The notes below the pieces were generated by a model. That model saw nothing but the letters and a program-made list of their open reading frames with translations, searched no databases and was not told the DNA's origin. A stretch of 64,000 nt of DNA from Candidatus Bathyarchaeota archaeon (GTDB taxonomy: Archaea; Thermoproteota; Bathyarchaeia; TCS64), in contig CAVYLP010000006.1 of NCBI GenBank assembly GCA_963769425.1, positions 160,001-224,000 on the forward strand, given 5' to 3'. The first letter of the stretch is position 1. Every line of letters begins with the position of its first letter. The position numbers and the translations under genes were made by a program. Below, in pieces: positions 20,108-56,989 of the stretch.

Positions 20108-20337
20108 CCCATTTTGCAAGGTTGAGGTCCCAAGGAAAAATGCCAACTATGTGCGACTCAAGGTAAGAAGAGAATCGTTAGGACGTGAAATAGATAAGCA
20201 GATTGAGTTTTTTATTGTAAACAACGCTGTTTACAAAGAAAAGAAATATAATGTTATGAAGAAATACTCCACAAACGTTAATTCTCATTTTGTCATAAAT
20301 CTATTCTAAATGCCATTCAGCTTCAAGGAGAGAAAAA

Positions 20338-21879: not shown

Positions 21880-21892
21880 GATATGTATTAAA

Positions 21893-22246
21893 ATGGCTAA
21901 AAGAAGACGAGGAACAGCTATAGTTGATACTCTCGATGGTATTTTGGTAGTCAGTCAAGATGGGAAAACATTTCTTCTTCCTGGTGGAGGTGCCAAAAGC
22001 AACGAGAGTAGGATGAATGCTGCGTTGAGAGAACTCACTGAGGAGACTGGTTTAGTTCCTACGGGATGTATTTTTCTTTTTGAATACGAATCTCATACCA
22101 CGTTCCACAAAGTATTTTTAATAAAATGTTCAGGTATCGCAAAACCAAGTCATGAAATAAGATACGTTACTTATTTTACTGGTAACAATGTAAGATTATC
22201 ATCTGGGACTAAGGCTATCTTAGAAAAATATTATGCCATGAATTGA
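21893..22246 (+). CDS. NUDIX hydrolase
   Basis: Nudix box GGGAKSNESRMNAALRELTEETG. Confidence 0.9.
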   Translation: MAKRRRGTAIVDTLDGILVVSQDGKTFLLPGGGAKSNESRMNAALRELTEETGLVPTGCIFLFEYESHTTFHKVFLIKCSGIAKPSHEIRYVTYFTGNNVRLSSGTKAILEKYYAMN

Positions 22247-41719: not shown

Positions 41720-43564
41720 TTACTTGTTGTCGGTTGTTGCCTCGACACCTTTCTCTTCTTTGAATTGCATCTTGTAGAATGAGCTGTAAAGTCCATTAAG
41801 CTTCATCAGTTCGAAGTGTGATCCCTTCTCGACGATTCTCCCCTGATCTATGACCAGGATCTCGTCACAGAGCCTAATCGTTGAAAGTCTATGAGCTATT
41901 ATTATCGCCATTCTGTTTTCAAGGAGTTTCTTCAACGCGTTTTGTAGCACGAGTTCGGTGTAGGGGTCTATGCTTGAGGTGGCCTCGTCTAGGATCAGTA
42001 GCTTTGGGTTCAGCAGAAGTGTTCTTGCGAAGCTTATCAGTTGTCTCTGTCCTATCGAAATGTTTGATGAGCCTTCCTCTATGATGTAGTCGTATCCTCC
42101 GGGTAGTTTCATTATGAAATCATGTGCACCGACGGTTTTGGCTGCCTCGATAACTGCCTCGTCGGATGCGTCGGGTTTTCCGAATCTAATGTTATCTCTT
42201 ACGCTGATGGCAAATAGGAAGGAGTCCTGGAGAACAGTGCTCATGTTTCCTCGAAGAGATGCGATCGTAATATCCTTGATGTCGTGTCCGTTTACTAGTA
42301 TTCTCCCGCTTATGGGGTCGTAGAACCTCTCAAGGAGATTTATTATTGTGCTCTTACCAGCGCCTGTAGGCCCGACTATGGCGAGCTTCTTTGAACCTTC
42401 TAGATCCAGGTTTACGTCGTGTATGACTGGATTTTGTGGGTCGTAACCGAATGTGATGTCCTCAAATTTCACTTCATTTATTGTATCAATCTTTATGGCT
42501 TTGTCTGGCGAGGGATCATCTACATCAACTTTAGTGTCTACTAAGTCGAAGATTCTTTCTAATGCGGACATGCATGATTGGTATTGGTCATAAGCGGTTA
42601 GGAACGTGGTGAGTGGTCCAAAATAGTTGAACTGATACTCTAGGAACGCTGCGAGTATTCCTAGGTTGATCTGGCCGTTTATAACGAGAATTGTGCCATA
42701 CCATAGTATTAGTACTGTTCCAACAATCCTCATAGTCAGTATGAGTGGTGTGTATATTGTTGATAGGAGGATGGTGCGTTTGTATGATTGAACAGTTTTT
42801 TCATTAACAACATCAAATTCTTGTTCAGCCTTATCTTCTTTTACGAATGCTTTTACGATCTTCATTCCTGCGAAGTTCTCTTGCATCTTGGCTATCAGGC
42901 CTGCAAGATTTGTGAGAGTCTTTCTATACTGTTTTCTTGATAGTCCTCCCATGACCCATGTCATGATTACTGCTATTGGAAGGATCGAGACTGCTAGTAA
43001 TGCAAGTTGCCAGTTTAGGAAGAATATTATTACCAATGCGCCTGCAATTGAGGCCGCATCGAGAATCATCGCTGTTAATCCCATTCTTAAGAATATTCTG
43101 ACCTGGTTTGCGTCTGTTGTCGGCCTCGACATTATACGCCCTATCTCTCCTTCTGAGAAGTACTTGAGCGATATTTTCTGTAATTTAACGGTACACTGGT
43201 TTCTAAGATTCATTACGACGTGTTCGCCGACGATTCTCATCTGATATGTCTGAATGTACTGGAAGACGTAGGTGGCTATTGTTACCCCGATGAATAGGGG
43301 GACCCACCAGATGAACGCTGAGATATATGAGCTATCGCGATTCTGTATTGTTGGAGTTATTATATTGTTTATAGCGATTAGGTGGAGGTATGGTGTGACA
43401 AGCCCCGTAAATGCACCTCCGGCGATGGCGATTGTGCCGAGAATCAAGTTCTTCTTGTAAACTACTATGTAATCCCAGAGTCTACCGATTAGTACTCCGT
43501 CAGCGACTTTTCTCTTCCCTCTCTCCTCCACTTTTGTTGAGAAGGTATTATGTTCATCAGACAA
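41720..43564 (-). CDS. ABC exporter half-transporter (TMD+NBD), subunit B
   Basis: GPTGAGKS, ISIGQRQ, ILDEATS, AHRLST; TTG start right after the partner's stop. Confidence 0.92.
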   Translation of the reverse strand: MSDEHNTFSTKVEERGKRKVADGVLIGRLWDYIVVYKKNLILGTIAIAGGAFTGLVTPYLHLIAINNIITPTIQNRDSSYISAFIWWVPLFIGVTIATYVFQYIQTYQMRIVGEHVVMNLRNQCTVKLQKISLKYFSEGEIGRIMSRPTTDANQVRIFLRMGLTAMILDAASIAGALVIIFFLNWQLALLAVSILPIAVIMTWVMGGLSRKQYRKTLTNLAGLIAKMQENFAGMKIVKAFVKEDKAEQEFDVVNEKTVQSYKRTILLSTIYTPLILTMRIVGTVLILWYGTILVINGQINLGILAAFLEYQFNYFGPLTTFLTAYDQYQSCMSALERIFDLVDTKVDVDDPSPDKAIKIDTINEVKFEDITFGYDPQNPVIHDVNLDLEGSKKLAIVGPTGAGKSTIINLLERFYDPISGRILVNGHDIKDITIASLRGNMSTVLQDSFLFAISVRDNIRFGKPDASDEAVIEAAKTVGAHDFIMKLPGGYDYIIEEGSSNISIGQRQLISFARTLLLNPKLLILDEATSSIDPYTELVLQNALKKLLENRMAIIIAHRLSTIRLCDEILVIDQGRIVEKGSHFELMKLNGLYSSFYKMQFKEEKGVEATTDNK

Positions 43565-43565
43565 T

Positions 43566-45410
43566 TTATTGATCGACCTCCAGTATCTCTTCGGGGGTCT
43601 TCTCAAGGAACTGTGTCTCGTATATTTTCTTGTATACCCTTCCCTTAGCCATTAGTTCATTGTGTGTTCCGAACTCGATGATTTCGCCATCATCAAGAAC
43701 CATTATTCTATCGGCATTCTTTATTGTTGAGAGCCTCTGGGCGATTATGAAGCATGTTCTACCCTTCAAAGCTTCATCAATTGCATCTTGTATTGCCTGT
43801 TCAGTCTTTGCGTCCACGAATGAGAGAGAGTCGTCTAGGATCAGGATCTTGGGGTTCGTTAACAGAGCCCTTGCGATGGTAAGCCTTTGTTTCTGGCCTC
43901 CTGAAAGGGTGACACCTCTCTCACCAACAAGTGTATCGTATCCCTCTGGGAGTGTCTCAATGAAGTCATCTATCTTGGCCATTTTTGCAACGGCTTTGAT
44001 CTCATCAATAGATGCGTCGTCTCTTCCAAATGCGATATTACTTTTTATTGTGCCCGAGAACAGGAATACGTCTTGAAGGACTAGCCCTACCTGTTTTCTG
44101 AGGAATGAGACCTTAAAATCCCTGATGTCTGTTCCATCTATTGATATGTTCCCTGAGTTGATGTCATAGAATCGGGGGATTAGATATACCAGAGATGTTT
44201 TTCCTGTTCCAGTTGCTCCGAGAATGGCTATTTTTTCCCCAGGATTAGCTATGAAACTGATGTTTTTTAGTATAGGTCTGTCCTTGACATATCCAAAAGT
44301 CACATCTTTGAATTCAACTTCTCCCTTTTCTATTTTGACATCTCTTGCATCTGGTCTGTTTATTACATCTCCGGGCAGATCGATTATATCGAAGAGTCTT
44401 TCGGATGCAGCTGTTGCGTTACTGAGACCTCCTATGAAGAAATGACTAAAATCACGAATGGGCCCAGTCGATCTCAAGACATACCTCGCATAGATCAGTA
44501 TCAACCCAAGTGACAATCCTAATGATAATATCATGTCTGTCCCGTAGACGTAGACTAATGTGATGCTCAGCGTTAGTATGGCAGTTGCAGAAGGCATGTA
44601 TATTGCTTGGATCTTCCCTGCTCTGATTGCGATGTCAACGTATTTTTCGTTAATATCTCTATCACCCACCTGCATTTCGTCTTCTCGTTGAAATATTCGG
44701 ATATTTTTCATTCCCACGATGTTCTGTTGCACATAAGAGCCGATTCGTCCTAAGATTAGCTGCATCTTCCTGAAGAGTGGCATCGTCAGCATGAAGTTCT
44801 TGGACTGGAAATAGAAAATGAAGGGAAGGGGTAACATCGCTATTACCGCCATGACCGGGTTTAACGTATAACATACCCAAAATATGAAAATCAATGTGAA
44901 AACAAGATTAGTTAATGTGCTAACCCATATTCTGAGGAAGCCGTCTACAAACATCAGTTCCTGTGTTGGCCTTGAGGTAAGGTCTCCTACAGGATTTGTG
45001 TCAAAAAAAGTAAAGGATTTTTCTTGACATGATTTGTAGTATTCCTTTCTTATATTTCCCATAACCATCTGCGAGACTATACCATTTAGGTATATTATTA
45101 CCCAATTGACTACAGCGAAACCTACTACCGCCACAAATATGTAAAGGAGTAAAGTTGAAAGAAGAGCAATATTACTAGTTGTCGGAGGGTTGCTTCCAAT
45201 AACGTAATCTATGAGTTGAGAGGTATACAGAGGCTCAAGAAGAAATAAGAATGATCTTAAGATAGCTAGCGTAGAAATGAAGACAATAATTGGGGTATAG
45301 GGTTTATGATATACCATAAGTCTCCTAAAAGCCTTTATTTGAGTAGAGAGGGCTTTTCGATTCTCCTCAATGGAATCGATATATCCAAGAATTGGTTTGG
45401 CAACAGCCAT
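43566..45410 (-). CDS. ABC exporter half-transporter (TMD+NBD), subunit A with degenerate Walker B
   Basis: GATGTGKT, LSGGQKQ, ILDDS, AQRLS (TM287/288-like heterodimer). Confidence 0.92.
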   Translation of the reverse strand: MAVAKPILGYIDSIEENRKALSTQIKAFRRLMVYHKPYTPIIVFISTLAILRSFLFLLEPLYTSQLIDYVIGSNPPTTSNIALLSTLLLYIFVAVVGFAVVNWVIIYLNGIVSQMVMGNIRKEYYKSCQEKSFTFFDTNPVGDLTSRPTQELMFVDGFLRIWVSTLTNLVFTLIFIFWVCYTLNPVMAVIAMLPLPFIFYFQSKNFMLTMPLFRKMQLILGRIGSYVQQNIVGMKNIRIFQREDEMQVGDRDINEKYVDIAIRAGKIQAIYMPSATAILTLSITLVYVYGTDMILSLGLSLGLILIYARYVLRSTGPIRDFSHFFIGGLSNATAASERLFDIIDLPGDVINRPDARDVKIEKGEVEFKDVTFGYVKDRPILKNISFIANPGEKIAILGATGTGKTSLVYLIPRFYDINSGNISIDGTDIRDFKVSFLRKQVGLVLQDVFLFSGTIKSNIAFGRDDASIDEIKAVAKMAKIDDFIETLPEGYDTLVGERGVTLSGGQKQRLTIARALLTNPKILILDDSLSFVDAKTEQAIQDAIDEALKGRTCFIIAQRLSTIKNADRIMVLDDGEIIEFGTHNELMAKGRVYKKIYETQFLEKTPEEILEVDQ

Positions 45411-45767
45411 TTTCAGGACTTCGTTAAACAATAATCGATTAGTAAATACTTATACGCTTATCGCTGGGTTAAACTGTCTGGATAAAAATTGGACAAATGT
45501 TTGCCTGTATTTTTTAATTTGACAGGTAATACGCACGTAAACTTGAAATATGATGGGTTGAATAACAGGTTGAATCAACTGGTGGTTTACCTGTCAAAAA
45601 GAATTGAGGCCTTTCTATATTATGGTCTAAGCGCGGTTGTAGTGATCGTCATCGTTATCCTCATACGCTCCATCAATATTGCAGCATAAATACATTCAAC
45701 GATTGCAAGTTTTTTAACTCAAATTGTAAGCATAAGTTTATTAAAATTGAAAAATAATTAAAAAGTA

Positions 45768-46352
45768 ATGGAGTCTTCTTCTAGATTTTCGATTTTTGTC
45801 ATCATATTGTCCCTCAGCTCTATCTTAGGATTCGCTGAAGGTTTTTTTATATGTTACGTCTTCACATTAAATGCATATTATTTGTCGGCCACACTTGGAT
45901 TCAGCCTTCTATTAATTGGTAGCTTGTTTTGGTTTTACTTTTATTTCATGAAGGTCGAACCATATTCCTCGAATACTAGTGCACCCCTTACCCAGATGCC
46001 TGTTACACGAGACTTTGTTAATCCTACCTACCGTAGAGTTCCGATTGATATCCTGGAGGCTCAGGAGGGTAGAGAACACCTCGTAGACATCGTAGAAAAT
46101 AATAAAACTATTCATATTATCGCTGAGCTTCCAATCGTTGGCATGAGTTATGTTAACTTCAACTGTTTAGGTAGGATGCTCATCCTCTCTTTCGACGTTG
46201 GAAACAATAGGTACTATAAAGATATCGAACTTCCATCTATGGTCAATTCCAATAGTGGTAAAGTTAAATTAAATAACTGGATCGTTGAATTAGATTTAAC
46301 AAAGATTAAAATGGAGAATTTGGAAGAAGATCAGTTAAAGCAAGAGTTTTGA
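45768..46352 (+). CDS. two-TM protein with C-terminal Hsp20/alpha-crystallin-like domain
   Basis: VDIVE...IIAELP, YYKDIELP, NNWIVELDL. Confidence 0.65.
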   Translation: MESSSRFSIFVIILSLSSILGFAEGFFICYVFTLNAYYLSATLGFSLLLIGSLFWFYFYFMKVEPYSSNTSAPLTQMPVTRDFVNPTYRRVPIDILEAQEGREHLVDIVENNKTIHIIAELPIVGMSYVNFNCLGRMLILSFDVGNNRYYKDIELPSMVNSNSGKVKLNNWIVELDLTKIKMENLEEDQLKQEF

Positions 46353-48674: not shown

Positions 48675-49115
48675 GTGGAGAATCGCTTGACTAACGGTAT
48701 GTTCTCTGCCCGCAGGCTCAAAAATAACAGGAGGGCTATGCGGTACAAGAGCAAGGACTTCGTCCTCCGAATGAAGCGCCGAACTACGAAGAAGGATCTC
48801 CTCATGGGCGCTCCAATGGGCAGGGGCATCGTACTCCAGAAGGTGGGCGTCGAGTCCAAGCAGCCAAACTCCGCCATCCGCAAGTGCGTTCGCATCCAGA
48901 TCATCAAGAACGGCCGACTCGCCACGGCTTTCCTCCCCGGCGACGGCGCCCTCAACTTCGTCGACGAACACGACGAGGTCACCATCGAGGGCATCCACGG
49001 CCCCCGCAGCCGCAGCATGGGGGACATTCCCGGCGTCCGCTACAAGGTGAGCGCCGTGAACGGTGTCCCACTTAATCTCCTGGTCGTCGGAAAGATCCAG
49101 AAGCCCACCAGGTAA
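48675..49115 (+). CDS. rps12: 30S ribosomal protein uS12
   Basis: [24 protein letters not shown]; true start may be TTG 48687. Confidence 0.98.
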
Positions 49116-49142
49116 AGCGGGTAAAGGTTTTCAGCGTCTCAA

Positions 49143-50333
49143 TTAGACGAGCTTCTTGTTTATTGGCTTGGTTTCCTTCGCTATTAGGCTTGGTACGAAG
49201 GCTACCGCGAAGAGAATGGATGATAGGTAGAAGGTCCATGAGGCGCCCTGGGCGGCGAGCACCCAAGTCATTATAATCGGGCCGGTTATTGAGCCCAGGT
49301 CGAAGAAGGTGCGGTACGTCCCGACGGCGGCCCCCCGGCTCTCCGCCTCAACCGACTCCGCGGCGAAGACTGGGCCGATTATCCAAATCGCCCCCGTCGT
49401 AATCCCGAGTAGGAAGAAGATAGCCGATGTCATGACGAGCCCGGAGACCAAAGTCAACGGCAGGACCATTACGGCGGTCGCCGCGATCCCGAACATCAGG
49501 ACCGGTTTTCTGCCGATCCTATCGGATATCATCCCCATAGTGAATATGGCGAGGACGTAGCCGATGGACATGGCGCCCATTATGATGCCTATGTCAGTCA
49601 GGCTCATCTTCAGGGTCCCGTTGGCGTACAGCGGGTAGGTTGTGTAGAGTACACCCTGGCTCACCACGAAGGAGACGAATGTCGCTAAACATACGGTGAG
49701 GAGCGTCCTGTTGCGGAACATCTTCGGGATGTCGGAGAGGTTCATCGGCCGGGACTTCGGGATGGTTAAGGCTTCTTTCTTGATTCTCGGTATTAGTATG
49801 AGGGCTACGGCGATGACGCAGAGTATGGCGGCGAGTATGAAGCCGCCAAAGAAGCCGAGCTCGGTGATGAGAAACCCGCTGACGGTTGAGCCTAGGATGG
49901 TCCCGCTGAATTCGATCCCCTGGAATATCCCCATCGCGCTCCCTCGGGTCTCGATGGGAAACATGTTCAGGATGAGGGTCATCGAGACGGCGAAGAAGAG
50001 GGGCGCGCCGAATCCCTGCAGCCCCCTCGCTATGATCAGCTGAACGGGGTCCGTGACGAAGGCGTTATAGAATGTGCCTATCGTGGTGAGGATGAGGCCG
50101 AGGAACATGGGCCAGTAGTAGCCCCAGCGGGAGGAGATGAAGCCGCTCGGTATCTCGAGCAGCACCCTCGCCACCCAGTAGGCGGCGACGCTGAAGCCTA
50201 TCATCACACCCGTGGCGCCTAGCGACTTCGCGAATATCGAGAGGAGGGGGTTGATCAGACTCGTGGAGAACATTGCGAGGAGGGCGACGACGCATAGGAT
50301 TACGTAGGAAACGCTGTAGCCTTTTCGCGACAT
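49143..50333 (-). CDS. MFS transporter
   Basis: About 12 hydrophobic segments, G.ISDRIGRK motif A. Confidence 0.92.
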   Translation of the reverse strand: MSRKGYSVSYVILCVVALLAMFSTSLINPLLSIFAKSLGATGVMIGFSVAAYWVARVLLEIPSGFISSRWGYYWPMFLGLILTTIGTFYNAFVTDPVQLIIARGLQGFGAPLFFAVSMTLILNMFPIETRGSAMGIFQGIEFSGTILGSTVSGFLITELGFFGGFILAAILCVIAVALILIPRIKKEALTIPKSRPMNLSDIPKMFRNRTLLTVCLATFVSFVVSQGVLYTTYPLYANGTLKMSLTDIGIIMGAMSIGYVLAIFTMGMISDRIGRKPVLMFGIAATAVMVLPLTLVSGLVMTSAIFFLLGITTGAIWIIGPVFAAESVEAESRGAAVGTYRTFFDLGSITGPIIMTWVLAAQGASWTFYLSSILFAVAFVPSLIAKETKPINKKLV

Positions 50334-50374
50334 TGTACCCTTAGCGCTCTATATCTCGTTATTATAAGTCTGGT

Positions 50375-50383
50375 GATCTTCGG
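50375..50383 (+). repeat. target-site duplication, left copy (GATCTTCGG)
   Basis: Identical 9-mer directly outside both terminal inverted repeats. Confidence 0.93.
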
Positions 50384-50407
50384 GATACTGTTCAGTCTTT
50401 TGTCATA
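50384..50407 (+). repeat. left terminal inverted repeat GATACTGTTCAGTCTTTTGTCATA
   Basis: Exact reverse complement of 56288-56311. Confidence 0.95.
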
Positions 50408-50422
50408 GTAGGATTTAACTGA

Positions 50423-51571
50423 CTATGTGATGGACGGGATTGGTTGAAGATCTCTCTCTAACTCAAGATTAGTTGTGTTGGATATTTTCTTTACCGGGTA
50501 AACGCTGAATGCCTCTTCAAAACTATCGGCTTTTCTAAACTTCTTGACTAATCCTTCGTAAGGAGGAAATGCCCCCCCATAACCAAGTATTCTCCTTGCG
50601 TTACCAACCATTTTTAATTGTTGATCCGTCCATAATGGTGATTTAAACTGGTTTTTTTCCAATGAGGTTAATGGTTCATATCTCATTGGATAAGATACAC
50701 ACCCTAGATCTGCAACTAATCGCGTTCGTTCAAAAAATGAATACGGATTATCACCACCGTAACTTTCATCGTAAAAATTGTAAATTGTGTAAAAGAAGAT
50801 CTTCCGTTTTCTTATACCACTTTGCGAAAGACGTTCTATGGCTTTTGTAACCTGTATTTTTTCATTATTATCATCAAACGCAGTCCTGATTATAGGAGTT
50901 GTTAGATCCGCTATCATACGGGCTTTCTCATCATCGATGAGACGACAATCAATTCCTTGGTTAAAATCAACAGGCAATCCTATGTCCCGTAGAGCAACAA
51001 GCATTTTTCTCCAATTTGGAGATGCAAGGATATTATTATCCCATAGAATAATTCTCTTATGACCCGGATAGACATAACGCTCTAACTCTTCTATTACAGA
51101 ATGAATCTTCCCTTCTAGTTTTGGAACAATGCAAAAAGGGCAGCTTCTGATACATCCTCTTGAAGTGAAAAGGATTGTACTATCCCATTTTTTCCATCGT
51201 TCGACATCATCTAAAATATCATATGCTGGAATGTAACTATCCGCTTTCTCAAAAAGTCCTGTGTGAACCTCTGTAAATGGAAAAAATGATTTAACTCTCT
51301 CAGACATTAATGATGCATAAATTCCTCCAACCCGTATCCTTGCATCAAGATATTTAGCATGGTAAAATTCGATTGCCTCATGCACCGGTTTCCATGCATA
51401 GGTGAATAAGGAGGTTATTTCTACAATATCAGGTTTAAAACTCCCATCCTCCTCCATACCATGGACGAGTTTAACTTGGTTACCTCTGGAACGATGGTAC
51501 GAAGCTAACTTGAGTAATCCGAGGGGAGGGAAACCGCTATAATATGCGGGCTCAACGAGCAGAACTTTCAT
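50423..51571 (-). CDS. radical SAM protein with N-terminal B12-binding-like domain
   Basis: SRGCIRSCPFC (CxxxCxxC), PPLGLLKLASY, VGGIYASL, DNN, DFNQGID.RL. Confidence 0.88.
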   Translation of the reverse strand: MKVLLVEPAYYSGFPPLGLLKLASYHRSRGNQVKLVHGMEEDGSFKPDIVEITSLFTYAWKPVHEAIEFYHAKYLDARIRVGGIYASLMSERVKSFFPFTEVHTGLFEKADSYIPAYDILDDVERWKKWDSTILFTSRGCIRSCPFCIVPKLEGKIHSVIEELERYVYPGHKRIILWDNNILASPNWRKMLVALRDIGLPVDFNQGIDCRLIDDEKARMIADLTTPIIRTAFDDNNEKIQVTKAIERLSQSGIRKRKIFFYTIYNFYDESYGGDNPYSFFERTRLVADLGCVSYPMRYEPLTSLEKNQFKSPLWTDQQLKMVGNARRILGYGGAFPPYEGLVKKFRKADSFEEAFSVYPVKKISNTTNLELERDLQPIPSIT

Positions 51572-51619
51572 AGGGAATGAAGCAATTTTAGGGGATAAAA
51601 ATGTTTCTGATAAAAATGG

Positions 51620-51660
51620 AAAAAAGGATCCAATAATGTATTTTATTATGGATTCCCTTT
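51620..51660 (-). terminator. putative terminator after the GHKL ATPase gene
   Basis: Minus-strand GGAATCCATAAT...ATTATTGGATCC hairpin followed by T6. Confidence 0.4.
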
Positions 51661-53436
51661 TTAAAGGTCTTTGACATTCTTGGATTTCTCTATCAATCGA
51701 AGTATGAGGTCTTGTGTCATGAGAAATTCTGTCATCGTATCAATTTTCTCTTCATCACTCATGGTTTCATAATATGAAAAAGAAATCTTCCCTCTTTCAT
51801 GCTTGTATGGATCAACGAATAAGTAATGGAGTGCAGAAATCATGGCTCCGAAGAGACGGTCACGGTATCTATCCTCGTTATTTGGTTTTTTATTAGCTAG
51901 AGTAAGAATAGGACCATTATCTCCTCTCTCAACGTTTTTCCAGTCAAAAGATCTTTGAGATAATTCCGCTATCTCACTGATTGTTAACCCTGTTTTTTGT
52001 CTTAGTAGATTTGCCACTGGGTCCATAGCATCAATGTTCAATTCCAATTTACCCCTCTTTGTTGTTAGTCTTAGATGTTCCTTAAGTTCAGGATGGCATG
52101 CTTTCGTCAATTCTGAAAGTCTCTCCATTTTTTCTTTGATGAGATCAGAAGGTTCTTCTTTTGTTTTTTCAAGGATTTCTTTTTCTAATTCTTCAATAGA
52201 TTTGGTTTCTTCCGCAGATTTCAAGTCAATTGCTTCTTTCATTTTCAATAAAGCAGGGTCTTTAGGAAAGCTTCGTTTTTGTTTTAACTTTTTCTTTAGT
52301 TTTACAATGGTGTTATTAGCATATTTTAGTTCACCAGAATTTACATCTTGTTTTATATGTTCTATGGTTTTTGTATTAATGTTATGTGATTGATAACGGT
52401 TCTGCTCTTGTACACTTCCTATAAAAACTCCTACTTGTTCATTTAATGGTTCGAGAATGTCATTATTTGCTTCAAAATTATTACGTGGAGCATTTTCCTT
52501 TAAATCATCAGTTATTATATGAATTTCTCCATATTGCCATTGATTAAACATACCATCGTGTTGTTTTATTACTAGATTTTCATCCCCGATTGTGATGCCT
52601 TTTTTCTTAAAATAAATGCCTCTGTTTGGAGGCTTTAATACACTATTGTTTTTGCCTGTAATGAGCCAACAATATGCTACTGGTTTTCCATTTATAACTA
52701 ACTTCTTATCGATGATAGTCTCAAAGAAAAGGTCATTGTTGTATGGAGGACGGAATATTTTTTGGTTTTCAAAGAAAATCTCTGCCATTTCGGTCTTGAT
52801 GCCATTTTCTGAAAGCCTCTTGTTAATCTCCTTTCCTAATGTAAATTTATCGGTATCGAATGGTGCAGGAAGATTCTGTGATAGATAATCCGTAATAAGA
52901 TTATCAGTGAATATCGTGTGTTGATTCGGTAGCATTTCCTCAAGTCTAACGGTCGTAAAATGCGATTCTTCAAGTGTTTCATCTTTTCCTAATTCAATAT
53001 TTTCAATGTTTCCCGTGATGTTATTTAATACTTCAATGGCTGGTTTGTTTAAGGTATATTGATCTCTTAACATATCTGCGTTTATTTCTACTCTGAACTT
53101 TGGATGACCCTGTTTTTTAGTTATTATAACAATTCTTCGACAAACAGGAATACCACTCCATATTCCAATTCCTCTCCAACCAATTAGTTCCCCAGATTTT
53201 TCGCTTACACCAAGATATAATGATTTTTCTAATTCTTTCTCATCCATACCACACCCATCATCTTTTATTATTAGATCAATATGTTTATTCTCAAAATACA
53301 CATCGACACGTTTTGCTCCTGCATCAAAGCTATTTTGGATGTATTCACGAAGGCTGTTTCTATTTCCATCATACAATCCTGCCGTAACTGCCTCAAGAAG
53401 TCTGGCACCAAAAGCTTCATTGGTAAATAATACTAA
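51661..53436 (-). CDS. GHKL (HATPase_c/MORC-like) ATPase; true start uncertain (ORF track starts at 53376)
   Basis: REYIQNSFDA (motif I), DDGCGM (II), GWRGIG (III), FTTV.L (IV), GEIHI and NAPRNNFE in the S5-like domain. Confidence 0.85.
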   Translation of the reverse strand, partial: LVLFTNEAFGARLLEAVTAGLYDGNRNSLREYIQNSFDAGAKRVDVYFENKHIDLIIKDDGCGMDEKELEKSLYLGVSEKSGELIGWRGIGIWSGIPVCRRIVIITKKQGHPKFRVEINADMLRDQYTLNKPAIEVLNNITGNIENIELGKDETLEESHFTTVRLEEMLPNQHTIFTDNLITDYLSQNLPAPFDTDKFTLGKEINKRLSENGIKTEMAEIFFENQKIFRPPYNNDLFFETIIDKKLVINGKPVAYCWLITGKNNSVLKPPNRGIYFKKKGITIGDENLVIKQHDGMFNQWQYGEIHIITDDLKENAPRNNFEANNDILEPLNEQVGVFIGSVQEQNRYQSHNINTKTIEHIKQDVNSGELKYANNTIVKLKKKLKQKRSFPKDPALLKMKEAIDLKSAEETKSIEELEKEILEKTKEEPSDLIKEKMERLSELTKACHPELKEHLRLTTKRGKLELNIDAMDPVANLLRQKTGLTISEIAELSQRSFDWKNVERGDNGPILTLANKKPNNEDRYRDRLFGAMISALHYLFVDPYKHERGKISFSYYETMSDEEKIDTMTEFLMTQDLILRLIEKSKNVKDL

Positions 53437-53666
53437 GGTAGATCCCTCTGTGTTTCATCATAGTATCAACCGCTTATATCTTATATGTCTCTATAACTCT
53501 TAAGGTTCTTTCCATTCTCGATTTTAATTTTAATCTTATTCATTGCTTTCTGAATCAATACTATTTTCTCTAACCCCCGTCAAAGAGGTGTCAGTGATTT
53601 AGGTATCCTAGGGGTATACCACAAGAGATATATAATTAGGGTATCCTGTAGGATATCTGTAGGAGT

Positions 53667-54590
53667 TTGGGAAAGATGAGTTGCAAGTACTGTGGGTCCG
53701 AAAAAATCGTCAAGAACGGAAAAGTCAAGGGAACACAGGTTTACAAGTGCAAGGAATGTGGACACAGGTTCTTCCAGAACGGCAACTTCTCAAAGATGCA
53801 GAGCGAGAAGCGGATCATAGCCGCAGCCTTAAACTTCTACTATGATGGACTATCGCTGAGAAAGGAGCAGCGCAACCTAGAGCAGATCTTCGGGGAACAC
53901 ATCAGCCAAGTTACAATCCTCAATTGGATTAAGAAGTACTCTAAGCTAGTCAAGGAGTATGTCGAGAAGCAGGCACCCCAGCTTTCAGGTCTCTGGCATG
54001 AGGATGAGACGATGCTAGGCTGTGAGGGGCGGAACATCTGGTTCTGGGAGATGATCGATGAGGACACCAAGTTCATGGTTGCAAGTCATATCTCAAACAC
54101 ACGAACATTTGAGGACACGATAGCCATATTTGATAAAGGGTTACAACAGAGCAAGGAGCGGCCTAAAGCCGTGTTCGTTGACGGGTGCAACGCATACAAA
54201 TCAGCGTTCAACAAGGTCTTCTATAGCAGGTACAAGACAGAGAAGGTAGAACTAGTACAACGAGTAGGGATAAGGGCTAGAGAGACAAACAACTCAATCG
54301 AGCGTCTACATGGAACCCTTAAGGACAGAACGAGGTGCATGAAAGGGCTACACAGCTACGAATCAACGAAACTGCTACTTGAGGGCTGGTCGGTTTACTA
54401 TAACTGCGTTAGGCCACATCAGAGCCTAGGCAACAGGACGCCGGCACAAGCAGCAGGGATGAATGTTCCAAACATTTGGCTGGGGCTCATAGAAGCGGCA
54501 ACCAAAGAAGAGGCGGTTGAATCAGTAGAAAAAATAAAGGGAGTAGAACCATTTTTGGATATGATGCAACTTGAGGTGAAAACGCGATGA
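53667..54590 (+). CDS. IS6/IS1-like DDE transposase with N-terminal Zn ribbon
   Basis: CKYC/CKEC Zn ribbon, HTH (GLSLR...SQVTILNWI), WHEDET, FVDG, NNSIERLH, YN..RPH.SL..TPA. Confidence 0.92.
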   Translation: MGKMSCKYCGSEKIVKNGKVKGTQVYKCKECGHRFFQNGNFSKMQSEKRIIAAALNFYYDGLSLRKEQRNLEQIFGEHISQVTILNWIKKYSKLVKEYVEKQAPQLSGLWHEDETMLGCEGRNIWFWEMIDEDTKFMVASHISNTRTFEDTIAIFDKGLQQSKERPKAVFVDGCNAYKSAFNKVFYSRYKTEKVELVQRVGIRARETNNSIERLHGTLKDRTRCMKGLHSYESTKLLLEGWSVYYNCVRPHQSLGNRTPAQAAGMNVPNIWLGLIEAATKEEAVESVEKIKGVEPFLDMMQLEVKTR

Positions 54591-54751
54591 AGAAGGTGCT
54601 AGTGGCTTTACCGGATGAAGTAGTTAACATGGTAGACACCGAACTGAGTGGAAAACTTGGCGATGGTAGGAGTGACACGCTGAGAACCATAATCATGAAT
54701 TGGCTAGGTGAAAAGGGATATCTGACAAAGGAGGGCAAGTCAAGTGAATAA
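54587..54751 (+). CDS. ribbon-helix-helix (CopG-like) protein, 54 aa, not in ORF track
   Basis: MKKVLVALPDEVVNMVDTELSGKLGDGRSDTLRTIIMNWL; ATGA overlap with the transposase stop; GAGGTGA SD. Confidence 0.75.
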   Translation: MKKVLVALPDEVVNMVDTELSGKLGDGRSDTLRTIIMNWLGEKGYLTKEGKSSE

Positions 54752-54887
54752 AACCAAAAAAGAACTCGAAGAAGAGGTTGAACTACTGAGCACAATGCTT
54801 GAGAGTTTAGTACAACTACTTGAGGAAAAAGGGGTACTAACGCAAGTCGAGTGGGAAAGAACAATTAAAAATAACATAGTCTTATAG
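54744..54887 (+). CDS. small helical protein, 47 aa, not in ORF track
   Basis: GTG start with GGAGG SD, overlapping the RHH stop; LESLVQLLEEKGVLTQVEWE. Confidence 0.65.
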   Translation: MNKTKKELEEEVELLSTMLESLVQLLEEKGVLTQVEWERTIKNNIVL

Positions 54888-54990
54888 GGTTCTGGTAACT
54901 TAACGGACCTAAGCAATTTGAAAAACGAGTGATAACTAGCGGAACATATTCTAAAAAACGAACTCATGGAATTTGGGAATGCAAATAAAG

Positions 54991-55374
54991 TTAAATTAAG
55001 TCATCTGTCTTCCACTGTGGAAGTCGCTCAGCTTCAGCAAATGCATTCCGATAACGAAGACCTCGTTCAATGGCTTCTCTAGTGTGATATGCCGATACAT
55101 GCAACTCGCCTCCCATGTGAGGAACCTGACTGATTATACCCTCAGAAACTAGTTGTTTTAAAGCCCTACTCCAATGCTTCAATTTGCCTTTTTCGTATCC
55201 ACTTTTCAGATTTGTTTCAGTGTGATGTTTTATTTGATTTCCATCACGGCCTACCCAACAACCATGGTAATACAACTTATTGACTATAAACCCCTTGATA
55301 TGGGCGAGATCACCTTTGTTTAACCCCGTATTGATTCCCCATGGGTAATAATAGGATCTACCTATGACATACAT
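54991..55374 (-). CDS. hypothetical protein, possible winged-helix
   Basis: IKGFIVNKLY...KHHTETNL..G...ALKQLVSEGII; start uncertain. Confidence 0.6.
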   Translation of the reverse strand: MYVIGRSYYYPWGINTGLNKGDLAHIKGFIVNKLYYHGCWVGRDGNQIKHHTETNLKSGYEKGKLKHWSRALKQLVSEGIISQVPHMGGELHVSAYHTREAIERGLRYRNAFAEAERLPQWKTDDLI

Positions 55375-55485
55375 ATAAACTCTTGGTAAAATAAAACAAT
55401 CTCTTAAGACAATCTTAATATGTCCGTATATTGTTATACAATAACAATACACACAAGTATAAATAAATGAGACAAAACAGATAGA

Positions 55486-55872
55486 ATGAGACAGAAAGAA
55501 AAGGAAGATGCTAGTATGGCCCCAGCAGGTAGCCGGAGATGGGGCGAAGACGCTTCAGATACGGAGGAGTATGCAGTTAGCGGCCCGTTGACGAGGCTCT
55601 TTGATTGCCCCACAGCCAGAGTGCTCGATCAGGCTTCATTAGTAGGTAAGATGGAACAAACGATCTCGATGCTAAAAGAGAGCACCAACCTAAGTTACAA
55701 GACTGTGGAAAAAGCTGTGAAGAAGTTGTTAGATCAGAAATTGATGGAGAAAGGCCGACGGATTGGGAATGCAAATACATACATCTTTCTCACAGAAAAT
55801 CACCTAAGTCAATTGATTGCTTGTGCCAACAAAATACAATTGGAGCATGTGAAAGAGCAATCTGAAAAATGA
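55486..55872 (+). CDS. winged-helix DNA-binding protein
   Basis: LF..PTARVLD, TISML.ESTNLSYKTVEKAVKKL, RRIGNA.TY. Confidence 0.75.
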   Translation: MRQKEKEDASMAPAGSRRWGEDASDTEEYAVSGPLTRLFDCPTARVLDQASLVGKMEQTISMLKESTNLSYKTVEKAVKKLLDQKLMEKGRRIGNANTYIFLTENHLSQLIACANKIQLEHVKEQSEK

Positions 55873-55901
55873 TTTTTGATTCTTTTTAAAAAATAGATTT
55901 G

Positions 55902-56201
55902 TTAAAGTTTCTTTTGAACCATCTCTTTTTCATGTTTTATTTCTGGGGCCTCCTTAAACATACTTGAAGTCGGAGGTCTACTTTGCTTCACTCCCTTTAG
56001 AAGCTGTTCGATTGTTAGAATCTGAATCTGGGCTGTAGATCCCTCTCCTGAAGTCTCTTTGAATAGAACGTTATAATCGGCTTTGCTGTTGAATGCGGGA
56101 TCTAAGTAAATCAGGTCAACGGATTCGTCTTTGATGAATTTCCTCATGACCGTTAGATTATCGCCGTAATAGAGGGTATTCACGAAATCCGGATTAGACA
56201 T
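55902..56201 (-). pseudogene. internally deleted N4/N6 DNA methyltransferase (R-M type) remnant
   Basis: N-terminal LYYGDNL..DESVDLIYLDPAFNS joined directly to C-terminal IQILTIEQLL; only about 100 codons. Confidence 0.8.
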
Positions 56202-56287
56202 CAAGGATACACTGTCTTTGAACATTTAAAAGAAATTGGATTAAGCGGTTATCGGTTTCTAATAGGTATCCACGCTTTACAGTACCA

Positions 56288-56311
56288 TATGACAAAAGAC
56301 TGAACAGTATC
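56288..56311 (-). repeat. right terminal inverted repeat
   Basis: TATGACAAAAGACTGAACAGTATC, reverse complement of the left TIR. Confidence 0.95.
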
Positions 56312-56320
56312 GATCTTCGG
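56312..56320 (+). repeat. target-site duplication, right copy (GATCTTCGG)
   Basis: Identical to 50375-50383. Confidence 0.93.
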
Positions 56321-56377
56321 TAAGCCTTTTATTCACGTTCCTACTCTTCCCCTCTGCAATCCGAGGCGATCGGCCAA

Positions 56378-56989
56378 GTGAGCGAAGAACCAGAAGTTAC
56401 AATCGAGGCCACTACAGCGGGAACCGGCGGCATAAAGCTATTCGGCGAGTGGAGCTTCGAGAACATAGAGGTCCGGGACCCCGGCCTCAAGAGGTACCTA
56501 AAGATCTCTCCCGTCTTCATGCCCCACTCCGGTGGTCGCCACGAGGCCAGGAAGTTCCAGAAGAGCGAGATGAGCATCGTTGAGCGCTTCACCAACGACC
56601 TCCTGAAGCCAGGAAGCAGCGGCGGCGACAAGCCACGCGTCATGAACGCGGTTAGGACGGCCTTCAAGATCGTCTACGTAAAGACGGGTAGGAACCCCAT
56701 AGAGGTGCTCGTCCGCGCGGTCGAGAACTGCTCGCCCAACGAGGACACGACTCGCATCGGCTACGGTGGTGTCGTCTACAGACTCGCAGTCGACATCTCA
56801 CCCCAGCGCAGGATCGACCTCGCCCTGAGATTCATCGCGAAGGGAATCAAGGAGCAGACCTTCGGCAACAGGAAGACCTTCGAGGAGATCATCGCGGACC
56901 AGCTCGTCGGCGCCGCCCAGAACGACGGCAACAGCTTCGGCGTCCGAAGGAAGCGCGAGATGGAGCGCGTAGCGCAAGCCTCTAGGTAA
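56378..56989 (+). CDS. rps7: 30S ribosomal protein uS7
   Basis: KLFGEW, PHSGGRH, SIVER, NPIEVLVRAVEN, AVDISPQRR.D, ERVAQASR. Confidence 0.98.
   Translation: MSEEPEVTIEATTAGTGGIKLFGEWSFENIEVRDPGLKRYLKISPVFMPHSGGRHEARKFQKSEMSIVERFTNDLLKPGSSGGDKPRVMNAVRTAFKIVYVKTGRNPIEVLVRAVENCSPNEDTTRIGYGGVVYRLAVDISPQRRIDLALRFIAKGIKEQTFGNRKTFEEIIADQLVGAAQNDGNSFGVRRKREMERVAQASR

What the first reader, a model, noticed from the sequence alone, without database searches (positions are those of the whole stretch)
50423..53436. GHKL/MORC-like ATPase plus B12-type radical SAM gene pair: candidate undescribed DNA-modification or anti-viral system
Seen: two co-oriented AT-rich genes fill the left arm of the transposon. 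One is a GHKL ATPase (REYIQNS, DDGCGM, GWRGIG) with an S5-like domain, a coiled coil and an unrecognised C-terminal domain. The other is a radical SAM enzyme (CIRSCPFC) with an N-terminal cobalamin-binding-like region. The same element carries a DNA methyltransferase remnant. Established: prokaryotic MORC-like ATPases are commonly linked to restriction-modification loci, and cobalamin-dependent radical SAM enzymes methylate unactivated atoms. Inference: the radical SAM modifies DNA or a nucleotide and the ATPase senses or acts on it. I know of no named two-gene system with this composition. Caveat: a terminator-like hairpin and a TATA-like TTTTTAT between them suggest separate transcription.
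Basis: partly seen in the sequence, partly recalled or inferred. Interest (0 to 1): 0.85.

Follow-up and report, generated by a model that had tools for sequence, protein, structure and literature searches.

The report
ATPase–radical SAM pair on transposon
A small jumping DNA element in an archaeon carries two genes, a MORC/Hsp90-like ATPase and a radical SAM enzyme, that travel together in many microbes and probably form an undescribed DNA-directed defence or DNA-modification system.

Summary
Window 50423-51571 (-) encodes a 382-aa radical SAM enzyme (CIRSCPFC) with an N-terminal B12-domain-like Rossmann fold. Window 51661-53376 (-) encodes a GHKL ATPase with a MORC/Hsp90-type middle domain and a helical tail. 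Both are cargo of a 5,928-bp AT-rich transposon (50384-56311) with perfect 24-nt inverted ends and a 9-bp target duplication. The pairing is not chance. It recurs in archaea, bacteria, plasmids and viral contigs, in both gene orders and at least four architectures. The two proteins co-diverge (r = 0.85, 22 pairs). A complex prediction passed its controls (0.77 against 0.00). The rSAM family (576 clusters at E <= 1e-30) also pairs with DpdB/DndB-like, SNF2, HerA-NurA and type IIG R-M genes. It sits beside DNA methylases in phages and is fused to C5-cytosine DNA methylases, so a DNA substrate is likely. PADLOC, Pfam, NCBIfam and six literature searches gave no named system. Function, cobalamin use and antiviral activity remain untested. 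This copy of the ATPase lacks a canonical start codon at the family's start position. Verdict: a credible, undescribed, mobile DNA-directed conflict module.

The parts
50375..50383 (.). Left copy of the 9-bp target-site duplication, GATCTTCGG
   Evidence: Read directly. It is identical to 56312-56320.
50384..50407 (.). Left terminal inverted repeat (24 nt) of the 5,928-bp transposon
   Evidence: pair I1, 100% complementary. These are the only two copies in the genome at up to 3 mismatches. Contigs of runs X1 and X2 start matching at 50383 with unlike DNA before it.
50423..51571 (-). Radical SAM enzyme, 382 aa (P0001). N-terminal Rossmann (B12-domain-like) part at about residues 1-125; rSAM barrel with C140/C144/C147; family-specific C-terminal part.
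   Evidence: Matches phrog_9298 at E 1.5e-59.
51620..51662 (-). Hairpin plus U-run directly after the GHKL stop codon (terminator-like), within the 89-nt spacer
   Evidence: dG -15.1 kcal/mol, z -2.16. Sequence.
51661..53376 (-). GHKL ATPase ORF from the first canonical start (TTG), 571 aa (P0002). Bergerat ATPase domain, MORC/Hsp90-type middle domain, long helices at 308-426, helical C-terminal domain.
53377..53436 (-). In-frame, conserved N-terminal 20 codons of the GHKL family (LVLFTNEAFGARLLEAVTAG). They have no canonical start codon: there is a TTA where homologues start.
53667..54590 (+). DDE transposase, IS240/IS6 type, 307 aa
   Evidence: Pfam DDE_Tnp_IS240 at E 1e-19. Single copy in the genome.
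54991..55452 (-). ORF of 153 aa, unknown function. It belongs to the transposon but is absent from a 93%-identical copy in run X1.
   Evidence: only a sub-threshold winged-helix-like hit. (X1 contig skips 54943-55903).
55486..55872 (+). ORF of 128 aa, unknown function
   Evidence: weak phrog_678 hit at E 2.7e-4.
55902..56225 (-). N-terminal remnant of a DNA methyltransferase (107-aa ORF)
   Evidence: phrog_67, DNA methyltransferase, E 5.3e-8, residues 14-54 only. No Pfam hit at E <= 0.01.
56288..56311 (.). Right terminal inverted repeat (24 nt)
56312..56320 (.). Right copy of the 9-bp target-site duplication, GATCTTCGG

Best explanation
The two genes encode a mobile, two-protein, DNA-directed conflict (defence-type) module.

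Proposed mechanism. The MORC/Hsp90-like GHKL ATPase binds the Rossmann-like N-terminal domain of the radical SAM enzyme. It serves as the ATP-driven part that engages or senses DNA. The rSAM is the catalytic part. It uses 5'-deoxyadenosyl-radical chemistry on DNA, most likely on a base such as cytosine or 5-methylcytosine. The result would be either a mark on DNA or damage to invading DNA.

In this archaeon the pair arrived as cargo of a 5.9-kb IS240/IS6-type transposon.

Shown by computation: the two domain architectures, the transposon, the recurrent pairing, the co-divergence, a predicted interface, and the DNA-centred company that the rSAM family keeps.

Inferred: complex formation in the cell, DNA as the substrate, and a defence role.
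For: 1. The pairing recurs.
- Starting from the rSAM, a GHKL-family ORF (my HMM, E <= 1e-3) lay in the fetched DNA around the rSAM (flanks of up to 6-8 kb) in 2 of 9 genome loci, 11 of 80 metagenome loci and 10 of 80 viral-contig loci.
- On the rSAM tree, all 8 members of the window's clade have it.
- Starting from the GHKL, 5 of 5 assessable genomes with a hit carry a family rSAM within 2 kb. In 3 of these it is directly downstream. A sixth hit sits at a contig end.

2. There are four architectures and both gene orders:
- a GHKL-rSAM cassette;
- GHKL plus a 305-aa protein plus rSAM;
- DpdB-like x2 plus SNF2 plus rSAM plus GHKL, also on Rhizobium plasmid pR132505, where the depositors name the genes DGQHR, ParB-N, helicase, radical SAM and ATP-binding;
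- NurA-like plus HerA plus GHKL plus rSAM.

3. The two proteins co-diverge. Pairwise distances correlate at r = 0.85 over 22 pairs and r = 0.955 over 9 type I pairs; 0 of 2000 permutations reached either value.

4. Complex prediction. The score was 0.77 and the best of 3 controls 0.00. That mark was reached by 58 of 80 solved complexes and by 2 of 110 mismatched pairs. The runs agree in at least 97% of contacts, and the partner's pLDDT is at least 83. My own alignments were used, so the calibration counts hold only roughly. The interface joins GHKL 29-34, 83-97 and 127-150 to rSAM 24-30, 46-48, 114-118 and 164-170.

5. Evidence for a DNA link of the rSAM family.
- 5 of 10 long family members tested carry a C5-cytosine DNA methylase domain. 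P0279 is one example: its rSAM part is 33% identical to P0001 over residues 2-376.
- Neighbours in viral contigs include C5 and N6/N4 DNA methylases and DUF5131.
- Cellular partners are DpdB/DndB-like proteins, SNF2 (ZorD/DpdE-like), type IIG R-M enzymes, HerA-NurA, ResIII-PLD and SMC-like ATPases.

6. Mobile and patchy distribution.
- The element has TIRs and a target-site duplication.
- Near-identical copies sit in other flanks, and there is an empty-site-like contig.
- A relative lies in the accessory region of prophage MCV1.
- GHKL was found in 1 of 400 other genomes of the own phylum and 4 of 400 of another.
- The close rSAM was found in 0 of 17 genomes of the same genus.

7. Six of 10 hand-picked flanking proteins of type I cassettes hit PADLOC models: methyl-directed REase 3.7e-79, MTase 1.4e-158, PDC-S36 2.1e-23, TIR/PDC-S66 3.8e-13, and two weak hits.
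Against: - No experiment bears on function.
- No recognised nuclease or methylase is part of the two-gene cassette.
- Most rSAM family members lack a GHKL neighbour: 69 of 80 metagenome loci, many on short contigs. The rSAM therefore does not need this ATPase.
- The flank sample was chosen by me and has no background control.
- In this window the GHKL gene has no canonical start at the family's start position.
- A terminator-like hairpin separates the two genes, so this copy may be impaired or uncoupled.
- Phage homologues sit in replication/recombination modules. That fits DNA metabolism in general, not defence specifically.
- The Dcm fusions are about 30-33% identical to P0001, so they are distant relatives whose substrate may differ.
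- The complex score is the model's own confidence, not a measurement.
Confidence: 0.55

Rival explanations
1. Nucleotide-level effector. The ATPase senses infection and the rSAM converts a free nucleotide or sugar into a toxic or chain-terminating analogue. This would be viperin-like in logic and AprD4-like in diol-dehydratase chemistry. DNA itself would not be the substrate.
For: The best whole-length structural match is the 1,2-diol dehydratase AprD4 (Z 25.2, rmsd 3.0, 332 residues aligned). rSAM enzymes that make antiviral nucleotides are known (viperins, and Ophion's OpnA; passages read). The two-gene cassette has no nuclease.
Against: The family is fused to DNA C5 methylases and neighbours DNA methylases, ParB/DpdB-like proteins, helicases and HerA-NurA. 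These are DNA-bound partners. There was no PADLOC hit, viperin models included, at E <= 0.1. Viperin aligns only with the barrel (Z 10.6).
Confidence: 0.15
2. Not immunity. The pair is a DNA repair, recombination or element-maintenance accessory. In this reading a MutL-like ATPase recruits a radical enzyme to lesions or to particular DNA structures, and the pair is carried by mobile elements for their own benefit.
For: The GHKL N-terminus resembles MutL/PMS2. Partners such as HerA-NurA, SNF2 and SSB are repair/recombination proteins. Phage homologues lie between RusA, DnaD and exonuclease genes and the terminase. From recall, spore photoproduct lyase shows that rSAM enzymes can repair DNA.
Against: The pair is very rare and patchy: GHKL in 1 of 400 and 4 of 400 genomes. 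The flanks of the cassettes change from locus to locus and include R-M, TIR-NLR and PD-T4-1-like genes. The DpdB-like, type IIG and mad8-like partners are classed with defence systems in PADLOC.
Confidence: 0.15
3. In this genome the pair is inert cargo. The ATPase has lost its start codon and the copy is decaying, like the neighbouring methylase remnant.
For: There is a TTA at the family's start position and no ATG, GTG or TTG until 20 codons later. That removes a conserved N-terminal segment. A terminator-like hairpin lies between the genes. A methylase remnant sits in the same element.
Against: Both reading frames are otherwise intact and full length. The 20 upstream codons are still in frame and conserved. 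The TIRs are perfect and the target duplication is intact, which points to a recent insertion. The catalytic GHKL motifs lie downstream of the TTG.
Confidence: 0.25
4. Chance adjacency of two unrelated cargo genes.
For: In the window there is an 89-nt spacer with a hairpin and TATA-like motifs.
Against: The pairing recurs at 30-90% identity in both orders, and the proteins co-diverge. The complex prediction passed its controls.
Confidence: 0.02

Closest known systems
Prokaryotic MORC/paraMORC GHKL ATPases of restriction-modification neighbourhoods (Iyer et al. 2008, PMC2292703, search listing only; passage in PMC3710099 read)
   Same: A GHKL (HATPase_c_3) domain plus a MORC/Hsp90-type middle domain. 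Mobile, defence-island context. R-M genes nearby in relatives.
   Different: The partner is a radical SAM enzyme rather than a methylase, nuclease or helicase. The C-terminal helical domain is unassigned. No HEPN (Ymh) domain was detected.
Tiamat, a single-gene GHL ATPase/DNase defence protein (bioRxiv 10.64898/2026.09.30.754977; start of the abstract in the listing, and one passage of the reference list)
   Same: A MORC-like ATPase used in antiviral defence.
   Different: Tiamat acts alone and is said to be a DNase. Here there is no nuclease domain and the ATPase is tied to an rSAM partner. Homology to Tiamat was not tested.
MzaB of the Mza system, and BbrUII/HgiDII-type GHKL restriction enzymes
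   Same: Weak N-terminal GHKL similarity: PADLOC MzaB at E 1.8e-9, NCBIfam BbrUII at E 1.1e-10.
   Different: Scores are far below the family cut-offs (29.6 against 850; 40.7 against 550). Only residues 8-111 align. None of the other Mza genes is present.
Prokaryotic viperins and Ophion (OpnA rSAM + PHP + PRTase; bioRxiv 10.1101/2025.09.30.679545, passages read)
   Same: Radical SAM enzymes as catalytic parts of defence systems.
   Different: Those enzymes are viperin-type barrels without the N-terminal Rossmann domain, and their partners differ. P0001 hit no PADLOC model.
rSAM enzymes with a B12-binding-like N-terminal domain: AprD4, MgmA, TsrM, TokK, OxsB, and the methylthiotransferases MiaB/RimO
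   Same: The same two-domain fold over about 300-340 residues (Z 15-25. Foldseek E 1e-9 to 1e-7).
   Different: 13-19% identity. No auxiliary-cluster cysteines and no TRAM domain. A distinct set of conserved motifs (WDNN, DFNQG.D.R, YPMR.EP, RR..G.GG..PPY). Cofactor and substrate are unknown.
Dpd (7-deazaguanine) and Dnd DNA-modification/restriction systems
   Same: Other members of the rSAM family sit with DpdB/DndB-like DGQHR proteins and DpdE/ZorD-like SNF2 helicases.
   Different: No DpdA/TGT and no DndACDE. The window's cassette itself has none of these partners.

Membership tests
Radical SAM superfamily | CX3CX2C cluster motif in a partial TIM barrel | tested here: met
   C140-X3-C144-X2-C147 is invariant in 26 sequences. 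The barrel aligns with many rSAM structures. Pfam PF04055 scores only 20.6 bits against a cut-off of 29.5 for this protein, but relatives pass it.
Cobalamin-dependent (class B) radical SAM enzymes | N-terminal cobalamin-binding Rossmann domain that actually binds cobalamin | tested here: inconclusive
   The fold of residues 1-111 matches corrinoid-binding domains (Z about 10-11), and the whole length matches MgmA, TsrM and TokK. But the best match is AprD4, recalled as B12-independent. Pfam B12-binding gives E 0.034, below its cut-off. Cofactor binding cannot be tested with these tools.
MiaB/RimO methylthiotransferases | Three N-terminal cysteines for an auxiliary cluster, and a C-terminal TRAM domain (features recalled) | tested here: not met
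   The only invariant cysteines are the three of the rSAM motif. NCBIfam scores are 21 bits against cut-offs of 251-357. No TRAM hit.
Viperin-type defence rSAM | Match to the viperin family models | tested here: inconclusive
   No PADLOC model hit at E <= 0.1. Viperin aligns with the barrel only (Z 10.6). No direct profile comparison was made.
GHKL ATPases | Bergerat-fold motifs: E..N, D.G.G, G..G.G | tested here: met
   E11/N15, D39-G41-G43 and G66-R68-G69-G71 are invariant or nearly so. HATPase_c_3 scores 57 bits against a cut-off of 25.
MORC/paraMORC | GHKL domain followed by an S5-fold domain | tested here: inconclusive
   The model aligns equally well with the MORC2/3/4 ATPase modules and with the Hsp90 N-terminal plus middle domains (E about 1e-13 to 1e-12). 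The two were not told apart.
MzaB (Mza system) | Full-length match to NF041932 | tested here: not met
   29.6 bits against a cut-off of 850; only residues 8-91 align.
IS6/IS240-family transposable element | DDE_Tnp_IS240 transposase, terminal inverted repeats, target-site duplication | tested here: met
   Transposase at E 1e-19. 24-nt perfect TIRs. 9-bp direct repeat. The 8-bp duplication usual for IS6 is recalled from memory, and here it is 9 bp. That this transposase acts on these particular ends was not tested.

The most novel reading that the evidence does not exclude
A MORC-like ATPase guides a radical SAM enzyme that writes a so far unknown carbon-radical modification on DNA. One possibility is further alkylation or rearrangement of cytosine or 5-methylcytosine, as the Dcm-rSAM fusions suggest. 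The mark would serve self/non-self discrimination, making this a radical-SAM-based analogue of restriction-modification. Phage homologues (phrog_9298) would use the same chemistry to escape restriction.
Probability: 0.3. Interest if true: 0.9.

Novelty: new variant of a known kind. Interest (0 to 1): 0.75.

Why it matters
Radical SAM chemistry on DNA is almost unexplored in immunity. Viperin-type enzymes act on free nucleotides.

The family here has 576 clusters at 50% identity with E <= 1e-30. It is fused to DNA cytosine methylases. It is wired to MORC-like, HerA-NurA, SNF2, DpdB-like and type IIG R-M partners. It is spread by transposons, plasmids and prophages.

That makes it a concrete, testable entry point to a possible new DNA modification and to a new family of defence systems. 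Cultured hosts are available, for example rhizobial plasmids, Marinitoga virus MCV1 and Bacteroides and Clostridium phages.

It also gives a prokaryotic case in which a MORC-type ATPase is coupled to a DNA-modifying enzyme.

Tried and rejected
Leads that went nowhere
- Pfam, NCBIfam and PADLOC gave no specific family for the rSAM. They gave none for the 305-aa, c6 or NurA-like partners either.
- The Atlas look-up of the GHKL C-terminal domain (residues 425-571) gave only hits at 0.90 or below without a common Pfam family. One cluster name mentions an AbiGii toxin domain. I treated this as no evidence.
- A profile-profile comparison of the 305-aa partner with the GHKL alignment found nothing (probability 0.3). 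That partner's profile hit no PDB sequence.
- P0327 had no PDB sequence match.
- My GHKL HMM found no rSAM-GHKL fusion among the 150 listed rSAM representatives.
- The TIR has no further copy in the genome at up to 3 mismatches. The transposase has no second copy.
- No RNA holder was listed among the sequencing runs, so nothing can be said about expression.
- Parts of the stretch without contig cover are not interpreted.

Literature
- Six full-text searches, plus passages read, found no description of a GHKL-rSAM pair or of this rSAM family in defence.
- Supplementary files were not opened. The Ophion preprint's list of over 500 candidate systems could bear on novelty.
- Current DefenseFinder and PADLOC releases were not on hand.

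Counts that are only proxies
- 33 of the 120 listed GHKL hits share their 'longest contig' length with one of the 120 listed rSAM hits. This is my hand count and is a proxy only.
- Cluster 2 joined two kinds of protein: HerA-like ones of about 550 aa and type IIG enzymes of about 1,090 aa. Its count of 24 loci should not be read as one family.
- Dropped before the tree: rSAM fragments under 250 aa, and loci L001, L011, L012, L014, L015 and L017 (own genome or weak matches).

Considered and rejected
- Methylthiotransferase: no auxiliary cysteines.
- Housekeeping modification enzyme: too rare and patchy.
- Chance adjacency.


Full report
WHAT IS THERE

The window is archaeal chromosome, with genes for EF-1alpha, S10, S12 and S7. 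Its GC content is about 60%. It drops to 0.33-0.45 between about 50.4 and 56.3 kb.

That block is a discrete element. It has perfect 24-nt inverted repeats at 50384-50407 and 56288-56311. These are flanked by the 9-bp direct repeat GATCTTCGG at 50375-50383 and 56312-56320. The repeat occurs nowhere else in the genome at up to 3 mismatches.

The 5,928-bp element carries, in order:
- the radical SAM gene (50423-51571, minus strand);
- the GHKL ATPase gene (51661-53376, minus strand);
- an IS240/IS6-type DDE transposase (53667-54590, plus strand; Pfam E 1e-19), which is single-copy in the genome;
- two small unknown ORFs;
- a remnant of a DNA methyltransferase (55902-56225; phrog_67 at E 5.3e-8 over residues 14-54).

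It sits between an MFS transporter gene and the S7 gene.

Public contigs support its ends and its mobility:
- In run X1 a 4,765-nt contig, about 93% identical, begins to match exactly at 50383, with 161 unlike letters before it.
- Run X2 shows the same break at 50383.
- One X1 contig joins 50309 to 56316 without the element.
- The X1 copy lacks 54943-55903, which holds the two small ORFs.

THE TWO PROTEINS

Radical SAM enzyme (P0001, 382 aa). It has C140-X3-C144-X2-C147. These are the only invariant cysteines among 26 aligned relatives. Other family motifs are WDNN, DFNQG.D.R, YPMR.EP and RR..G.GG..PPY. Pfam and NCBIfam see only sub-threshold general rSAM and B12-binding signals.

Its AlphaFold2 model (pLDDT 90.8) aligns over the whole length with enzymes that combine a B12-domain-like Rossmann domain with the rSAM barrel (Foldseek agrees):
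- AprD4: Z 25.2, rmsd 3.0, 332 residues aligned
- MgmA: Z 22.9
- MiaB: Z 20.4
- TsrM: Z 19.8
- RimO: Z 19.3
- OxsB: Z 17.6
- TokK: Z 15.2

Cobalamin use therefore stays open.

GHKL ATPase (P0002). It has the Bergerat motifs, and HATPase_c_3 scores 57 bits. Its model (pLDDT 89.1) aligns over about 370-440 columns with both the MORC2/3/4 modules and the Hsp90 N-terminal plus middle domains. Residues 308-426 are long helices. The C-terminal helical domain matched nothing that I could trust.

One flaw in this copy: homologues start 20 codons upstream (M/L-VKFTDEAFGAKLLEAITAG...). The window keeps that stretch in frame and conserved. But the codon at the homologues' start is TTA, and no ATG, GTG or TTG occurs before 53376.

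The 89-nt spacer holds a hairpin plus U-run right after the ATPase stop (dG -15.1 kcal/mol, z -2.16) and two TTTTTAT motifs.

IS THE PAIR REAL?

Yes.

Close homologues. Close homologues of both proteins exist (rSAM up to 90% identity, GHKL up to 68%). Nearly all are unnamed, and most come from archaea and some from bacteria.

Starting from the rSAM. A GHKL-family ORF lay in the fetched DNA around the rSAM (flanks of up to 6-8 kb) in 2 of 9 genome loci, 11 of 80 metagenome loci and 10 of 80 viral-contig loci. Many of these contigs are short. On a tree of 139 rSAMs, the window's clade (WINDOW, L018, L019, L085, L002, L080, L020 and L021) has the ATPase in 8 of 8. GHKL-linked rSAMs also appear at four other places on the tree.

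Starting from the ATPase. It was found in 1 of 400 other genomes of the window's phylum, at a contig end and so not assessable. It was found in 4 of 400 genomes of the phylum of G449, plus G449 itself. All 5 assessable genomes have a family rSAM within 2 kb, and in 3 it lies directly downstream.

The pair occurs in four architectures:
- Type I: a self-contained cassette, GHKL of about 590 aa followed by rSAM of about 380 aa. Its flanks differ in every locus.
- Type II: GHKL, an unknown 305-aa protein and rSAM, with a divergent DndB-like gene.
- Type III: two DpdB/DndB-like genes, an SNF2 helicase, a longer rSAM and GHKL. This type is also on rhizobial, Novosphingobium and other plasmids. On Rhizobium plasmid pR132505 the depositors call the genes DGQHR, ParB-N, DEAD/DEAH helicase, radical SAM and ATP-binding. 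My HMMs confirm the last two.
- Type IV: NurA-like, HerA, GHKL and a long rSAM.

Spacing. The gaps between the two stop-to-stop reading frames run from -110 to +87 nt in 19 of 21 pairs.

Co-divergence. Pairwise distances of the two proteins correlate at r = 0.85 (22 pairs) and r = 0.955 (9 type I pairs). None of 2000 permutations reached either value. This shows co-inheritance as a unit.

Complex prediction. It gave a score of 0.77 against a best control of 0.00. That mark was reached by 58 of 80 solved complexes and by 2 of 110 mismatched pairs. The runs agree in at least 97% of contacts, and the partner's pLDDT is at least 83. My own alignments were used, so these counts hold only roughly. 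The predicted interface joins the sheet face of the ATPase domain to the Rossmann-like domain of the rSAM. I know of no solved GHKL-rSAM complex, so the pass is unlikely to come from memory. This statement rests on recall, not on a search.

WHAT THE rSAM FAMILY DOES ELSEWHERE

The family is large. It has 5,845 clusters at 50% identity with E <= 1e-3, 2,358 with E <= 1e-10 and 576 with E <= 1e-30. It is the same family as phage phrog_9298 (E 1.5e-59).

Without a GHKL partner, it sits next to:
- HerA plus a NurA-like gene. One example is the accessory region of the temperate Marinitoga virus MCV1, where the depositors use those names. Homology to my clusters was shown.
- A type IIG restriction-methylase plus an unknown 470-aa protein.
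- ResIII-PLD helicase plus an SMC-like ATPase plus DndB-like proteins.

In viral contigs, distant members (about 30% identity) neighbour C5 and N6/N4 DNA methylases, DUF5131, SSB and the terminase. In cultured temperate phages they lie in the replication/modification module.

Most telling, 5 of 10 long family members tested are fused to a C5-cytosine DNA methylase domain. In P0279 the rSAM part is 33% identical to P0001 over residues 2-376 and keeps all the family motifs.

All of this company is DNA-bound, so DNA is the most likely substrate. No rSAM-GHKL fusion was seen among the 150 best representatives.

DEFENCE CONTEXT

Of 10 flanking proteins that I picked next to type I cassettes in 5 loci, 6 hit PADLOC models:
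- methyl-directed type II REase, E 3.7e-79
- type II MTase, E 1.4e-158
- PDC-S36/PD-T4-1, E 2.1e-23
- TIR-NLR/PDC-S66, E 3.8e-13
- two weak hits

This sample was not random and has no background control.

The pair itself hit no PADLOC model beyond a weak N-terminal MzaB-like signal.

HOW IT MOST LIKELY WORKS

My reading (0.55) is a two-protein complex that acts on DNA. The ATPase dimerises on DNA or senses it, as MORC- and MutL-type GHKL proteins do. The bound rSAM carries out radical chemistry on DNA. I favour a base modification of the cytosine or 5-methylcytosine type, because of the methylase fusions.

Whether the mark protects the host's own DNA, as in restriction-modification, or disables invading DNA cannot be decided here.

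Rival readings:
- a viperin- or AprD4-like nucleotide effector (0.15);
- a repair or recombination accessory of mobile elements (0.15);
- for this particular copy, inert cargo, given the missing start codon (0.25, not exclusive of the others);
- chance adjacency, which is excluded.

NOVELTY

I found no named system with this composition:
- PADLOC v2;
- NCBIfam and PGAP give only generic names;
- six full-text searches and the passages read.

Supplementary files and newer defence databases could not be consulted.

I rate the finding as a new variant of a known kind: a mobile ATPase-plus-enzyme conflict module. There is a realistic chance (0.3) that it hides a new DNA modification.

Noticed in passing
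window 53377-53436 (-): The GHKL family's conserved first 20 codons are intact and in frame. But the start position holds TTA, and there is no canonical start before TTG at 53376. This could be a recent start-codon loss, a sequencing error or an unusual initiation.
   Followed up: partly
window 48675-56989: The ribosomal protein genes S12 (48675-49115, +) and S7 (56378-56989, +) are separated by an MFS transporter gene on the opposite strand and by the transposon. EF-1alpha and S10 lie upstream on the minus strand. From recall, this is an unusual layout for the archaeal S12-S7 cluster.
   Followed up: no
window 20001-22000: A second AT-rich island (GC 0.36-0.39). It holds a 513-aa ORF (20338-21879, +) with a low-complexity N-terminal half and one predicted membrane helix, followed by a small Nudix-like-looking ORF. 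Neither was annotated here.
   Followed up: no
window 41720-46352: A region of lower GC (0.35-0.47). It holds two overlapping ABC-transporter-type genes (41720-43606 and 43566-45431, minus strand) and a 194-aa membrane ORF. It is possibly another acquired block.
   Followed up: no
L080:1788-10215; L187:196-7926: Two rSAM-containing systems lie side by side. In L080, a type I GHKL-rSAM cassette is convergent with a second rSAM plus DndB-like, SNF2 and DndB-like genes. In L187, a HerA-GHKL-rSAM operon is convergent with a second, type I-like GHKL that has no rSAM of its own.
   Followed up: partly
L134:6737-7771, L147:4633-5391 and 10 other loci (cluster 5): DUF5131 (phrog_2045) recurs within a few kb of the phage-type rSAMs and DNA methylases: 12 of 171 loci. 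Its role is unknown.
   Followed up: partly
L063:3436-4350, L066:7648-8568, L069:8680-9744, L005:5014-5931: A conserved 305-aa protein accompanies the shorter type II GHKL. It has no Pfam, PADLOC or PDB match, and it is unrelated to the type I GHKL C-terminal domain by hhalign.
   Followed up: partly
window 54943-55903; run X1: A copy of the transposon about 93% identical, in another metagenome, lacks the two small ORFs; 9 other letters stand in their place. Those ORFs are therefore dispensable cargo.
   Followed up: no
L192:12206-15722 (Rhizobium plasmid pR132505): Directly after the seven-gene rSAM operon lies a second GHKL-family 'ATP-binding protein' (my HMM, E 1.7e-31), paired with a PIN-like domain protein. 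This looks like another GHKL-plus-effector pair.
   Followed up: no
P0327, P0326: In two fusion proteins, only the C-terminal part of the C5-methylase profile follows the rSAM domain. In P0327, 230 unassigned residues precede it. The rSAM may be inserted inside a methylase.
   Followed up: no
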